Of a stretch of 64,000 nucleotides of DNA, positions 51,145 through 54,266 are shown one piece after another. Numbering within the stretch: position 1 is the stretch's first letter; each line of letters starts with the position of its first letter. Source of the stretch: Escherichia coli (GTDB taxonomy: Bacteria > Pseudomonadota > Gammaproteobacteria > Enterobacterales > Enterobacteriaceae); the NCBI RefSeq assembly GCF_050920415.1, contig NZ_CP169309.1; one strand, written 5' to 3'. Under the pieces are notes generated by a model. It searched no databases. It saw nothing but the letters and a program-made list of their open reading frames with translations, and was not told the DNA's origin. The translations under genes and the position numbers were made by a program.

Positions 51145-51564
51145 ATGGCAATGACTTACCACCTGGACGTCGTCAGCGCAGAGCAACAAATGTTCTCTGG
51201 TCTGGTCGAGAAAATCCAGGTAACGGGTAGCGAAGGTGAACTGGGCATTTACCCGGGCCACGCACCGCTGCTCACCGCCATTAAGCCTGGTATGATTCGC
51301 ATCGTGAAACAGCACGGTCACGAAGAGTTTATCTATCTGTCTGGCGGCATTCTTGAAGTGCAGCCTGGCAACGTGACCGTTCTGGCCGACACCGCAATTC
51401 GCGGCCAGGATCTCGACGAAGCGCGAGCCATGGAAGCGAAACGTAAGGCTGAAGAGCACATTAGCAGCTCTCACGGCGACGTAGATTACGCTCAGGCGTC
51501 TGCGGAACTGGCCAAAGCGATCGCGCAGTTGCGCGTTATCGAGTTGACCAAAAAAGCGATGTAA
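51145..51564 (+). CDS. atpC: F0F1 ATP synthase subunit epsilon
   Basis: 139-aa [57 protein letters not shown]... Confidence 0.96.
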
Positions 51565-51586
51565 CACCGGCTTGAAAAGCTCAAAA

Positions 51587-51615
51587 GCCAGTCTGGAAAC
51601 AGACTGGCTTTTTTA
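51587..51615 (+). terminator. atp operon rho-independent terminator
   Basis: gccagtct-ggaaac-agactggc followed by TTTTTTAT, immediately after atpC. Confidence 0.85.
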
Positions 51616-51760
51616 TATGTATTTTGCTGATTGATACAAAAATTATATTATTCATCAAAAAGTTAGCGTCTTGTTAAGTCGTTAATTGTCACCTTTTCTC
51701 CATAGTGATATCGTCCCTGTTGTTATTATTATTTCTATAATTATATGAGGGATCATATCT

Positions 51761-52459
51761 ATGTCTTTTAAAACGTCTTTTGAAGGTGTCCAACCGGTTG
51801 TGATGACCGATCGCGCCACCTTTATCCGCCGTGCTTATATGCATCTGGCTGGGGCAGTTGTCGGGTTCATCATTCTCAGCGCGCTGTTTATCTTTAGTGG
51901 GCTTGGCAAAATGATGCTTAGGGTGCTGATGAACAGTGGTCAGTTTGGTTGGCTGGTGGTGCTGGGTGCTTTTATTCTGGTCAGCATGCTGGCGACTCGT
52001 CTGGCAGATAATGTGGAGTCTAATCAGACCCAACTGATTGGACTGGGGATATACGTACTGGCAGAAGCGTTAATTTTTGCACCTTTACTGACACTGGCAG
52101 CGTATATTAATCCAGCAATTATTGGCGCGGCGGGCATCACCACAGCACTGCTTGTGGGGGGTCTGACATTCACTGCCTTCACGACCAAAAAAGATTTCTC
52201 TTTCATGCGTTCGTTTTTAACCATGGCGGGCTTTATCGCTTTCGGTGCCATTATCGCGAGCATTTTTATGGGATTCTCACTGGGCGTCTGGTTCTCGGCG
52301 GCAATGGTGCTGTTGTGTGCTGGCTTCGTGCTGTACGACACGTCTAATATTATTCATCATTATCCTACCGATCGTCCGGCAGGCGCGGCGCTACATCTCT
52401 TCGCCTCTATCGCTACCATGTTCTGGTATGTTCTGCGCATTTTCATGTCCCGCGATTAA
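51761..52459 (+). CDS. Bax inhibitor-1 (BI-1)/YccA-family integral membrane protein, about 7 TMS
   Basis: 232-aa hydrophobic ORF with family-typical C-terminal motifs TTKKDFSF ... YDTSNIIHHY ... ending SRD; GAGG is followed by the ATG; AT-rich 5' flank; own terminator. Confidence 0.75.
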   Translation: MSFKTSFEGVQPVVMTDRATFIRRAYMHLAGAVVGFIILSALFIFSGLGKMMLRVLMNSGQFGWLVVLGAFILVSMLATRLADNVESNQTQLIGLGIYVLAEALIFAPLLTLAAYINPAIIGAAGITTALLVGGLTFTAFTTKKDFSFMRSFLTMAGFIAFGAIIASIFMGFSLGVWFSAAMVLLCAGFVLYDTSNIIHHYPTDRPAGAALHLFASIATMFWYVLRIFMSRD

Positions 52460-52472
52460 CCCTGCTTGTATA

Positions 52473-52498
52473 AACCAGCGAAATTATTCGCTGGTTTT
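52473..52498 (+). terminator. Rho-independent terminator after the BI-1 family gene
   Basis: aaccagcg-aaattatt-cgctggtt followed by TTCC (stem plus short T-run). Confidence 0.6.
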
Positions 52499-52734
52499 CC
52501 CGTTTATTTATTGATCGAAATAAGAGCAAAAACATCCACCTGACGCTTAAATGAAGGTACTGCCTTAATTTTCTGCAGACAAAAGGCGTGACGATGGTCG
52601 AAAATGGCACTTTCGTCAGCGGGGATAATCCGTTATTGAACAATTTATCCTCTGTCCATTTCACGATGAAAAAAATGTAGTTTTTTCAAGGTGAAGCGGT
52701 TTAAATTCGTTCTCAAATTACAGTCAGGACGCGT

Positions 52735-54105
52735 ATGTTGAATAATGCTATGAGCGTAGTGATCCTTGCCGCAGGTAAAGGCACGCGCATGTATTCCGAT
52801 CTTCCGAAAGTGCTGCATACCCTTGCCGGGAAAGCGATGGTTCAGCATGTCATTGATGCTGCGAATGAATTAGGCGCAGCGGACGTTCACCTGGTGTACG
52901 GTCACGGCGGCGATCTGCTTAAACAGGCGCTGAAAGACGATAACCTGAACTGGGTGCTTCAGGCAGAACAGCTGGGTACGGGCCATGCAATGCAGCAAGC
53001 CGCACCTTTTTTTGCCGATGACGAAGACATTTTAATGCTCTACGGCGACGTGCCGCTGATCTCTGTTGAAACACTCCAGCGCCTGCGTGATGCGAAACCG
53101 CAGGGTGGCATTGGTCTGCTGACGGTTAAACTGGATGATCCGACCGGTTATGGACGTATCACCCGTGAAAACGGCAAAGTTACCGGCATTGTTGAGCACA
53201 AAGATGCCACCGACGAGCAGCGTCAGATTCAGGAGATCAACACCGGCATTCTGATCGCCAACGGCGCAGATATGAAACGCTGGCTGGCTAAACTGACCAA
53301 CAATAACGCGCAGGGCGAATACTACATCACCGATATTATTGCGCTGGCGTATCAGGAAGGACGTGAAATTGTTGCCGTTCATCCGCAACGTTTAAGCGAA
53401 GTAGAAGGCGTGAATAACCGCCTGCAACTCTCGCGTCTGGAGCGTGTTTATCAATCCGAACAAGCTGAAAAACTGCTGTTAGCAGGCGTTATGCTGCGCG
53501 ATCCGGCGCGTTTTGATCTGCGCGGTACGCTTACTCACGGGCGCGATGTTGAAATTGATACTAACGTTATCATCGAGGGCAACGTGACTCTCGGTAATCG
53601 CGTGAAAATCGGCACCGGTTGCGTGATTAAAAACAGCGTGATTGGCGATGATTGCGAAATTAGCCCGTATACCGTTGTGGAAGATGCGAATCTGGCAGCG
53701 GCCTGTACCATTGGCCCGTTTGCCCGTCTGCGTCCTGGTGCTGAGTTGCTGGAAGGCGCACACGTCGGTAACTTCGTTGAGATGAAAAAAGCGCGTCTGG
53801 GTAAAGGCTCGAAAGCCGGTCATCTGACTTACCTGGGGGATGCGGAAATTGGCGATAACGTCAACATCGGCGCAGGAACCATTACCTGCAACTACGATGG
53901 TGCGAATAAATTTAAAACCATTATTGGCGACGATGTGTTTGTTGGATCCGATACTCAGCTGGTGGCCCCGGTAACGGTAGGCAAAGGCGCAACCATTGCT
54001 GCGGGTACAACTGTGACGCGTAATGTTGGCGAAAATGCTCTGGCAATCAGCCGTGTGCCGCAGTCGCAAAAAGAAGGCTGGCGTCGTCCGGTAAAGAAAA
54101 AGTAA
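52735..54105 (+). CDS. glmU: Bifunctional GlcNAc-1-P uridyltransferase / GlcN-1-P acetyltransferase
   Basis: 456-aa [51 protein letters not shown]... with C-terminal hexapeptide repeats. Confidence 0.96.
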
Positions 54106-54266
54106 TTCTGGCTGGGTAATCCGGCCATATGGGGTGAGGAGATAACATAATCTCCCGCCCACAAGCAGTAACTATAAAAATAACCCCACTCTCTACAAAG
54201 GCTCGGGGCGCCCGAAAAACGGGCATACAGGTTGACCGACAACGATATAAATCGGAATCAAAAACT

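What the first reader, a model, noticed from the sequence alone, without database searches (positions are those of the whole stretch)
51616..52500. BI-1/YccA-family membrane protein gene between atpC and glmU
A 232-aa Bax-inhibitor-1-family ORF with its own RBS and terminator sits between the atp terminator and glmU, giving an atpC-glmU spacing of about 1.17 kb. From memory the K-12 interval is about 0.35 kb with no gene, so this looks like a strain-variable islet in an otherwise core region. The 5' flank is AT-rich. BI-1 homologues (YccA, YbhL) modulate FtsH and membrane stress, so an extra paralogue next to the atp operon is notable.
Basis: partly seen in the sequence, partly recalled or inferred. 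Interest (0 to 1): 0.5.

Follow-up and report, generated by a model that had tools for sequence, protein, structure and literature searches.

The report
Lineage-retained BI-1 family membrane gene
A small inner-membrane protein gene of the Bax-inhibitor-1 (TMBIM) family lies between the ATP-synthase operon and glmU because this strain's lineage (Escherichia cryptic clade I) has a gene, shared at the same site with E. fergusonii, E. albertii and some Salmonella and Citrobacter relatives, that ordinary E. coli lacks; it is an already annotated gene of untested function, not a new inserted island.

Summary
An intact 232-aa ORF (51761-52459, +) with its own Shine-Dalgarno sequence and terminator fills a 1170-bp atpC-glmU spacer. 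The K-12 spacer is 352 bp and holds no gene. The protein is a full-length Pfam Bax1-I member, and its predicted fold matches only B. subtilis YetJ. It is not an orthologue of YccA, YbhL or YbhM.

The "islet" reading is only partly right. Just 6 of 5426 complete E. coli genomes carry the gene, and all six belong to a rare divergent lineage, cryptic clade I. The same gene sits at the same site in E. fergusonii, E. albertii, Salmonella, Superficieibacter, Citrobacter and Pseudocitrobacter. It is under strong purifying selection (dN/dS 0.03-0.08) and has host-like GC. It has no mobile-element hallmarks. Three E. coli genomes keep a decayed remnant of its 3' end.

The gene is therefore an old resident of this site that mainstream E. 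coli lost. The clade-I and E. fergusonii alleles are unexpectedly close, which suggests homologous exchange between those lineages.

Function is inferred only. It is probably a TMBIM-type membrane-homeostasis protein. Like YccA, it has Ser at the second position of the YetJ di-aspartyl sensor. RefSeq already annotates it, so interest is low.

The parts
51145..51564 (+). atpC, last gene of the atp operon; left anchor
   Evidence: ORF; annotated atpC in the identical strain MFDS1022581
51583..51612 (+). atp operon intrinsic terminator (13-bp stem plus T run); left border of the variable segment
   Evidence: homology to K-12 ends at 51614
51615..52493 (+). Segment present here but replaced in K-12-type E. 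coli by an unrelated filler of about 61-68 nt
   Evidence: alignments; carried by 6 of 5426 complete E. coli genomes
51616..51760 (+). AT-rich (27.6% GC) upstream region with two overlapping sigma-70-like sites (51686-51714 TTGTCA-17-TATCGT with TG; 51705-51732 GTGATA-16-TATTAT); promoter inferred, not shown
   Evidence: the number of consensus matches (4) does not exceed shuffles significantly (mean 2.5)
51747..51751 (+). Shine-Dalgarno GAGGG, 9 nt before the ATG
   Evidence: sequence
51761..52459 (+). CDS of a 232-aa Bax1-I/TMBIM-fold inner-membrane protein (RefSeq WP_000008757.1)
   Evidence: dN/dS 0.03-0.08
52472..52512 (+). Intrinsic terminator of the gene: hairpin 52472-52497 plus a U-rich tail
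   Evidence: the CCAGCG/CGCTGG stem is kept with different loops in E. albertii, Salmonella and Superficieibacter
52494..52651 (-). Rfam STnc410 candidate sRNA, a neighbour rather than part of the gene; its 3' end marks the right border of the variable segment and it is also present in K-12
   Evidence: 186.6 bits; 188.3 bits in K-12
52735..54105 (+). glmU; right anchor

Best explanation
The feature is a functional, separately transcribed chromosomal gene for a seven-helix inner-membrane protein of the Bax-inhibitor-1/TMBIM family. It belongs to a distinct, widespread and experimentally uncharacterised subfamily with an invariant motif YDTSxIIHHYPxDRPAGAALHLFAS. It is not an inserted islet. 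The atpC-glmU spacer is the gene's long-standing home in the Escherichia/Salmonella/Citrobacter part of the Enterobacteriaceae. Mainstream E. coli lacks the gene, with a truncated remnant surviving in a few strains. Escherichia cryptic clade I, the lineage of this window, still has it in some members. The clade-I allele is a close sister of the E. fergusonii allele, closer than the flanking genes predict. That suggests the segment was exchanged between these two lineages by homologous recombination through the conserved atp and glmU flanks; the direction is unknown. The mechanism is inferred, not shown. The protein adopts the YetJ/BI-1 fold and keeps the first aspartate of the YetJ pH-sensor dyad (D193). 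Like YccA, it has serine (S216) in place of the second aspartate. It most likely acts in membrane homeostasis, as a small-cation or proton leak pathway and/or as a YccA-like partner of FtsH, rather than as a strict YetJ-type di-aspartyl-gated Ca2+ channel. I put about 45% on ion leak or transport and about 25% on FtsH modulation; the two are not exclusive.
For: Identity: Pfam Bax1-I E = 1.2e-32 over the full model. The AF2 model has pLDDT 89.3, and its only significant PDB matches are ten YetJ chains (TM 0.67-0.79, probability 1.0). RefSeq annotates it as a Bax inhibitor-1/YccA family protein. Selection: the CDS is exactly 699 nt in six species, with dN/dS of 0.029 against E. fergusonii and 0.077 against E. 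albertii. The six E. coli carriers encode the identical protein despite 0-3 silent differences. Old residence at this site: atpC-gene-glmU synteny holds in E. fergusonii, E. albertii, two Salmonella lineages whose loci are 90% identical in nucleotides, Superficieibacter and Citrobacter. In Pseudocitrobacter and an unnamed enterobacterium the gene also directly follows atpC; further DNA separates it from glmU, which was seen in Pseudocitrobacter and lay beyond the fetched flank in the other. CDS GC is 49.6% and GC3 54.5%, like the neighbouring genes. There is no integrase, tRNA or target duplication. An 81-nt remnant (last 40 nt of the CDS plus the terminator) survives in strain 14EC033 and two other genomes, with 0 of 2000 shuffles scoring as well. 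That remnant is equally distant (79%) from the clade-I/E. fergusonii allele and the E. albertii allele. Lineage: the same 16-18 genomes are nearest to the window at glmUS (at least 98.6%, all others at most 96.0%) and at ilv/rrn (at least 98.1%, all others at most 97.0%). All six carriers are among them, and EC42405 and 2013C-4282 are published clade-I strains. Exchange with E. fergusonii: dS for the gene is 0.066, against 0.142 for glmU and 0.271 for glmS. In the E. albertii comparison its dS (0.77) exceeds those of both flanking genes (0.44 and 0.41), and it is saturated in the Salmonella, Superficieibacter and Citrobacter comparisons. Sensor residues: D193 aligns with YetJ D171 and S216 with YetJ D195; YccA also has Ser at that position. 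Both residues are invariant in 24 diverse subfamily members.
Against: No expression or phenotype data exist for this gene or its subfamily. The promoter is only a consensus match not enriched over shuffles. The filler in K-12-type E. coli cannot be shown to derive from the gene (661 of 2000 shuffles score as well; 222 of 5000 when restricted to the collinear last 95 nt). Loss in the main E. coli lineage is therefore inferred from synteny and from the remnant in three genomes, not seen directly. Twelve of the roughly 18 clade-I-like complete genomes lack the gene and carry a K-12-like filler with clade-I markers in the atp terminator, so the gain and loss history inside clade I is unresolved. 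Repeated inter-genus homologous transfer through the conserved flanks therefore cannot be excluded as an alternative to vertical descent. No conserved neighbour outside Enterobacteriaceae gives a functional hint.
Confidence: 0.8

Rival explanations
1. It is a recently acquired strain-specific islet: foreign DNA inserted between atpC and glmU by a mobile element or illegitimate recombination.
For: It is absent from 5420 of 5426 complete E. coli genomes, including K-12. The upstream flank is AT-rich. The nearest relatives outside Enterobacteriaceae are Betaproteobacteria and Xanthomonadales at 53-66% identity, so an ancient transfer into the family is plausible.
Against: The gene sits at the same site in at least six other enterobacterial taxa, with divergence broadly increasing with taxonomic distance. 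GC and GC3 are host-like. There is no transposase, integrase, tRNA or target-site duplication. The K-12 state is a replacement by a filler, not a clean empty site. A truncated remnant exists in E. coli. The carriers form one lineage.
Confidence: 0.05
2. Functionally it is a YccA-type protein: a substrate and competitive modulator of the FtsH/HflKC protease that protects SecY or other membrane proteins under envelope stress. Ion conduction would play no part.
For: YccA gives the best pairwise similarity (35% over the C-terminal 95 aa). The YccA model is the only NCBIfam hit. Both proteins have Ser at the YetJ D195 position. The first 11 residues are of very low model confidence (pLDDT below 50), so a flexible N-terminal end is plausible, and YccA degradation by FtsH depends on its N-terminal hydrophilic region. 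TMBIM5 likewise inhibits the FtsH homologue AFG3L2.
Against: It scores 30 bits against a 353-bit cut-off for the YccA equivalog, so it is not an orthologue. The N-terminal halves do not align. Many invariant polar or charged residues lie in predicted helices (D83, S87, Q91, E102, D193, H212, S216), which suggests a transport or channel role more than a decoy. No FtsH or HflKC linkage appears in the genomic context.
Confidence: 0.25
3. It is a strict YetJ/BI-1-type pH-gated Ca2+ leak channel that uses the di-aspartyl sensor.
For: The predicted fold matches YetJ only. The YetJ D171 equivalent (D193) is invariant. YetJ and eukaryotic TMBIMs mediate Ca2+ leak.
Against: The YetJ D195 equivalent is an invariant serine across the subfamily, so the defining di-aspartyl dyad cannot form. 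Neither a single-sequence nor a profile search finds YetJ.
Confidence: 0.12
4. It is a decaying or functionless leftover gene that is being lost everywhere.
For: It has been lost from mainstream E. coli and from 12 of about 18 clade-I-like complete genomes, and it is patchy among Enterobacteriaceae.
Against: dN/dS is 0.03-0.08, the CDS length is conserved at 699 nt in six species, and all six carriers encode the identical protein. It appears to be common in E. fergusonii: one variant alone lies on 293 contigs.
Confidence: 0.05

Closest known systems
E. coli YccA (FtsH protease modulator, Bax1-I family)
   Same: Same Pfam family. Identity is 35% over the C-terminal 95 residues. Both have Ser at the position of YetJ D195 and keep the TM6 Asp. 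Both are stand-alone inner-membrane proteins of about 220-230 aa.
   Different: It is not an orthologue: 30 bits against the 353-bit NCBIfam cut-off. The N-terminal half is unalignable and the chromosomal site differs. The subfamily-specific invariant motif DRPAGAALHLFAS is absent from YccA.
Bacillus subtilis YetJ (BsYetJ, PDB 4PGR/6NQ7), a pH-sensitive Ca2+ leak TMBIM
   Same: It is the only significant structural match (TM 0.67-0.79, Foldseek probability 1.0). Both have the seven-helix TMBIM fold, and the D171 equivalent (D193) is conserved.
   Different: Sequence identity is 17-20%. The second Asp of the di-aspartyl sensor is an invariant Ser (S216). Neither sequence nor profile search detects YetJ.
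E. coli YbhL and YbhM (the other K-12 Bax1-I paralogues)
   Same: Same Pfam family and similar size. YbhL aligns over 134 aa at 25% identity.
   Different: YbhL keeps the LYLDFINLF second Asp, whereas this protein does not. YbhM shows no significant similarity. This gene is a fourth, separate paralogue.
Human TMBIM5 (mitochondrial Ca2+/H+ exchanger and inhibitor of the m-AAA protease AFG3L2)
   Same: It is a TMBIM-family protein of an energy-transducing membrane. It shows that ion transport and AAA-protease modulation can coexist in one TMBIM protein (PMC9379554).
   Different: It is only a distant family relative and was not compared directly here. It retains the di-aspartyl dyad. The link is conceptual only.
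Brucella BrBI (BAX inhibitor 1 homologue)
   Same: It is a bacterial Bax1-I protein with a role in cell division and membrane homeostasis (PMC7876416).
   Different: It belongs to a different subfamily and was not compared directly here.

Membership tests
Bax1-I / TMBIM family (Pfam PF01027) | Significant full-length match to the family HMM | tested here: met
   E = 1.2e-32, 113.9 bits, residues 20-228 on model positions 2-207 of 207
Bax1-I / TMBIM family (Pfam PF01027) | Seven-transmembrane-helix TMBIM fold as in BsYetJ | tested here: met
   AF2 model pLDDT 89.3, pTM 0.85, eight predicted helices (seven long plus one short, 48-58). The top ten PDB matches are all YetJ, TM 0.67-0.79.
Bax1-I / TMBIM family (YetJ/BI-1-type pH-gated Ca2+ leak) | Di-aspartyl pH sensor (YetJ D171 and D195) | tested here: not met
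   D193 aligns with D171 and is invariant, but D195 aligns with an invariant Ser216
Bax1-I / TMBIM family (YetJ/BI-1-type pH-gated Ca2+ leak) | Ca2+ or cation leak activity | not testable with these tools
   Needs proteoliposome or in vivo flux assays
YccA orthologue group (NCBIfam NF007765, FtsH protease modulator YccA) | Score at or above the curated equivalog cut-off (353 bits) | tested here: not met
   30.1 bits; BLASTP gives 35% identity over the C-terminal 95 aa only
YccA orthologue group (NCBIfam NF007765, FtsH protease modulator YccA) | Binding to and degradation by FtsH/HflKC through the N-terminal tail | not testable with these tools
   Known for YccA from the literature; no data for this protein
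YbhL / YbhM paralogue groups | Orthologue-level sequence similarity | tested here: not met
   YbhL 25% over 134 aa, E = 2e-4; YbhM no significant alignment
Genomic island / mobile-element insertion | Integrase or transposase, tRNA or att site, flanking direct repeats, deviant composition | tested here: not met
   No such ORFs. The only border structures are two terminator hairpins; the one 13-nt direct repeat is internal and not conserved. CDS GC is 49.6% against 50.9% for the window. The site is conserved in six other taxa.
Anti-phage defence or phage protein families (PADLOC, PHROGs) | Match to a library model | tested here: not met
   No families matched

The most novel reading that the evidence does not exclude
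The subfamily defined by the invariant YDTSxIIHHYPxDRPAGAALHLFAS motif is found in at least 560 species representatives across Proteobacteria, Verrucomicrobia, Planctomycetes, Cyanobacteria and Acidobacteria. It may be a mechanistically distinct TMBIM type in which an Asp-His/Ser arrangement (D193, H212, S216) replaces the di-aspartyl sensor. On this reading, its fixed position directly downstream of the atp operon in Enterobacteriaceae would reflect functional coupling to proton-motive-force or ATP-synthase homeostasis, analogous to TMBIM5 linking the proton gradient to AAA-protease control.
Probability: 0.07. Interest if true: 0.55.

Novelty: already known. Interest (0 to 1): 0.18.

Why it matters
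It matters little for discovery. The gene is already annotated in RefSeq (WP_000008757.1, 'Bax inhibitor-1/YccA family protein') and belongs to a known family.

It has three modest uses. First, it marks a gene shared by cryptic clade I, E. fergusonii and E. albertii and absent from all the other (non-clade-I-like) complete E. coli genomes searched. It also gives a clear example of how a gap relative to K-12 can reflect loss in K-12's lineage rather than insertion. Second, it hints at homologous exchange between clade I and E. fergusonii in the atp-glmU region. Third, it points to a large, conserved TMBIM subfamily that nobody has tested. That subfamily lacks the second sensor aspartate, as YccA does, and could help separate the ion-leak and protease-modulator roles of bacterial BI-1 proteins.

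Tried and rejected
- **PDB sequence searches.** Single-sequence and profile searches found nothing. Only the fold comparison linked the protein to YetJ.
- **Defence and phage libraries.** PADLOC and PHROGs gave no hits, so the defence and phage readings were dropped.
- **Conserved neighbours outside Enterobacteriaceae.** I clustered the ORFs of 75 loci. Only spurious overlapping ORFs and Acidovorax-specific synteny recurred, so context gives no functional clue.
- **Origin of the K-12 filler.** I tested whether the filler of about 68 nt is a decayed remnant of the gene. It is not significant against the whole segment (661 of 2000 shuffles score as well) and only marginal in the collinear last 95 nt (222 of 5000). 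I left this as inconclusive.
- **13-nt direct repeat ATATTATTCATCA (51645 and 52347).** I considered it as a deletion substrate and rejected it. It is not conserved in E. fergusonii and does not match the junction of any observed deletion allele.
- **Very recent import from E. fergusonii.** Rejected, because 11-13 differences in the CDS and 12-14 in the 196-nt upstream flank separate every E. coli carrier from every E. fergusonii allele examined (three genomes).
- **Weak Rfam matches in the 5' flank** (greA leader, AbsR28). These fall far below the gathering scores and were ignored.
- **Literature.** Searches for the protein accession found nothing. Searches on YccA, YbhL and YbhM found no study of this paralogue.

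Full report
**1. Observation**

The window holds an intact ORF at 51761-52459 (+), 232 aa with an ATG start. A GAGGG Shine-Dalgarno sequence lies 9 nt upstream. The ORF is bracketed by two hairpins.
- The atp operon terminator lies at 51583-51612, with a 13-bp stem and a T run.
- The gene's own terminator hairpin lies at 52472-52497. It folds at -15.3 kcal/mol (z = -4.5; none of 200 shuffles folds as well) and is followed by a U-rich tail.

The atpC-glmU spacer is 1170 bp here. In K-12 MG1655 it is 352 bp with no annotated gene. The 145 nt upstream of the gene are 27.6% GC; the CDS is 49.6% GC. Every factual element of the finding is confirmed.

**2. What the protein is**

Pfam gives a full-length Bax1-I match (E = 1.2e-32, model positions 2-207 of 207). 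Searches of the PDB by sequence and by profile find nothing. An AlphaFold2 model built on 24 diverse homologues is confident (pLDDT 89.3, pTM 0.85). Its only significant PDB matches are ten chains of B. subtilis YetJ, the reference bacterial TMBIM structure (TM 0.67-0.79, probability 1.0). The next match has E = 1.7.

The protein is not an orthologue of any K-12 paralogue.
- YccA: the NCBIfam equivalog scores 30 bits against a cut-off of 353. BLASTP gives 35% identity over the C-terminal 95 residues only.
- YbhL: 25% identity over 134 aa.
- YbhM: no significant similarity.

RefSeq already annotates the protein as 'Bax inhibitor-1/YccA family protein', WP_000008757.1.

**3. Distribution within E. 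coli**

Of 5426 complete E. coli genomes, 5424 match the flanks but only 6 hold the segment, at 99.3-100% identity. K-12 homology ends at 51614, just after the atp terminator, and resumes at 52494. In K-12-type genomes the 879-nt segment is replaced by an unrelated filler of about 61-68 nt. This is a replacement, not a clean empty site.

The six carriers are not scattered across the species.
- At glmUS, only 18 genomes are at least 98.6% identical to the window; all others are at most 96.0%.
- At an ilv/rrn stretch 25-45 kb away, 16 of those same genomes are the nearest, at 98.1% or more, while all others are at most 97.0%.
- All six carriers are in this set.
- Two of them, EC42405 and 2013C-4282, are named Escherichia cryptic clade I strains in Okuno et al. 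2023 (PMC10100065).

The window therefore comes from clade I. It is identical to strain MFDS1022581 over every stretch compared, but unlike that strain it carries an IS2 in lpfC (section 8). None of the roughly 5400 other complete genomes carries the gene. Within the clade-I-like set, 12 of 18 lack it. The three of those examined have a K-12-like filler but carry clade-I-specific bases in the atp terminator.

**4. Distribution outside E. coli**

The same gene lies between atpC and glmU in:
- E. fergusonii, at 99% or more in amino acids. One variant alone is on 293 contigs, including many complete chromosomes.
- E. albertii, at 89%.
- Two Salmonella lineages whose loci are 90% identical to each other in nucleotides.
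- Superficieibacter, at 81-84%.
- A Citrobacter species, at 74%.

In Pseudocitrobacter and an unnamed enterobacterium the gene again directly follows atpC, but further DNA separates it from glmU; glmU was seen downstream in Pseudocitrobacter and lay beyond the fetched flank in the other.

Outside the Enterobacteriaceae the subfamily is widespread. At least 560 GTDB species representatives encode a relative carrying the PAGAALHLF signature, spanning Betaproteobacteria, Xanthomonadales, Verrucomicrobia, Planctomycetes, Cyanobacteria and Acidobacteria. None of the 75 such loci fetched lies next to atpC or glmU. No other neighbour is conserved across them.

**5. Loss rather than insertion**

Four observations point to loss.
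- Synteny holds across at least six other taxa, and divergence broadly increases with taxonomic distance.
- GC and GC3 are host-like.
- There is no integrase, transposase, tRNA or target duplication.
- Strain 14EC033 and two other E. coli genomes carry an 81-nt remnant directly after the atp terminator. It comprises the last 40 nt of the CDS with its stop codon, plus a degraded terminator hairpin.

The remnant's similarity to the gene is highly significant (0 of 2000 shuffles). It is equally distant (79%) from the clade-I/E. fergusonii allele and from the E. albertii allele. It therefore looks like a third, decayed Escherichia allele truncated by deletion.

The common K-12-type filler cannot be shown to derive from the gene. 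Loss in the main E. coli lineage is thus inferred, not observed directly.

**6. The gene is functional and has moved by homologous exchange**

The CDS is exactly 699 nt in all six species compared. dN/dS is 0.029 against E. fergusonii and 0.077 against E. albertii. The six E. coli carriers differ by 0-3 nucleotides in the CDS yet encode the identical protein.

| Comparison with the window | dS of this gene | dS of glmU | dS of glmS |
|---|---|---|---|
| E. fergusonii | 0.066 | 0.142 | 0.271 |
| E. albertii | 0.77 | 0.44 | 0.41 |
| Salmonella, Superficieibacter, Citrobacter | saturated | about 1.0 | 0.8-1.0 |

In the E. albertii, Salmonella, Superficieibacter and Citrobacter comparisons this gene's dS exceeds that of its flanks. 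Against E. fergusonii it falls well below them. The clade-I and E. fergusonii alleles are therefore several-fold closer than vertical descent predicts. This suggests homologous exchange of the segment between those lineages after the species split.

The exchange is not recent. Between 11 and 13 differences in the CDS, and 12-14 in the 196-nt upstream flank, separate every carrier from every E. fergusonii allele examined (three genomes). The direction is unknown. A few E. albertii records with a 99-100% coli-type protein hint at further exchanges.

**7. Mechanism (inferred)**

BsYetJ and eukaryotic BI-1 proteins are described as pH-sensitive Ca2+ leak proteins with a di-aspartyl dyad (YetJ D171 and D195). 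YccA is a substrate and inhibitor of FtsH that protects cells when SecY is jammed. TMBIM5 combines Ca2+/H+ exchange with inhibition of the FtsH homologue AFG3L2 (PMC9379554 and PMC7876416).

In this protein D193 aligns with YetJ D171, while the D195 position is Ser216. YccA also has Ser there. Both residues are invariant in 24 members sharing 56-89% identity. So is a block of polar residues in predicted helices: R18, Q91, H212 and the PAGAALHLFAS motif, with D83, S87 and E102 nearly invariant.

A strict YetJ-type di-aspartyl gate is therefore excluded. The fold and the conserved intramembrane polar residues favour an ion-leak or transport role, which I put at about 45%. A YccA-like FtsH-modulating role is the main alternative, at about 25%, and the two are not exclusive. 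Nothing here tests either. Transcription from its own promoter is also inferred: the consensus matches at 51686-51732 are not enriched over shuffles.

**8. Noticed in passing**

The right border of the variable segment coincides with the 3' end of a full-length Rfam STnc410 match on the minus strand (52494-52651, 186.6 bits). The same match is present in K-12.

Between glmS and pstS the window carries the lpfO113 fimbrial operon. Here lpfC is interrupted by an IS2.

**9. Verdict**

The 'inserted islet' reading should be replaced: the gene is an old resident of this site, lost by mainstream E. coli, present in part of cryptic clade I, and shared with E. fergusonii. It is already annotated, belongs to a known family and has no unusual architecture. 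Interest is low. The residual interest lies in the untested, widely conserved TMBIM subfamily that has Ser at the second sensor position.

Noticed in passing
window 52494-52651 (- strand): There is a full-length match to the Rfam candidate sRNA STnc410 (RF02060, 186.6 bits), antisense in the shared part of the atpC-glmU spacer. Its 3' end abuts the BI-1 gene terminator and marks the right border of the variable segment. The same match occurs in K-12 (L011 5053-5210).
   Followed up: partly
window 56402-62719: The lpfO113 long-polar-fimbria operon lies between glmS and pstS, a known variable site. In the window lpfC (from 57778) is interrupted by an IS2 (orfs 59489-60391 and 60352-60759, minus strand). 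The otherwise identical strain MFDS1022581 has an intact lpfC.
   Followed up: partly
whole window (tested at 8000-30000 and 52560-56100): The window belongs to a rare divergent E. coli lineage. Only about 16-18 of 5426 complete genomes are at least 98% identical and the rest are at most 96-97%. Two of these genomes are published Escherichia cryptic clade I strains.
   Followed up: yes
L002 1143-1240 (E. coli 14EC033); also strains 100416 and CUWW06: A decayed remnant of about 81 nt of the BI-1 gene (last 40 nt of the CDS plus a degraded terminator) sits directly after the atp terminator. It is equally distant from the clade-I/E. fergusonii allele and the E. albertii allele.
   Followed up: yes
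P0007, P0014 (protein hits): Some E. albertii records encode a 99-100% coli/fergusonii-type protein, whereas the usual E. albertii allele is 89% identical. This hints at inter-species exchange or mislabelled genomes.
   Followed up: no
L024 (Pseudocitrobacter faecalis) and L025 (Enterobacteriaceae MGYG-HGUT-00110): In these genomes about 2.9 kb or more of extra DNA lies between the BI-1 gene and glmU. The atpC-glmU spacer is therefore a recurrent site of variable content in Enterobacteriaceae.
   Followed up: no
window 51645-51657 and 52347-52359: There is an exact 13-nt direct repeat ATATTATTCATCA, with one copy in the 5' flank and one inside the CDS. It is not conserved in E. fergusonii and matches no observed deletion junction, so it is probably chance.
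   Followed up: partly
window 52735-56096 compared with L005-L007: The divergence gradient between E. coli and E. fergusonii runs atp (dS 0.01-0.03), then the BI-1 gene (0.07), glmU (0.14) and glmS (0.27). K-12 glmU is also unusually close to E. fergusonii (96-99%), which suggests older mosaic recombination across this region.
   Followed up: partly
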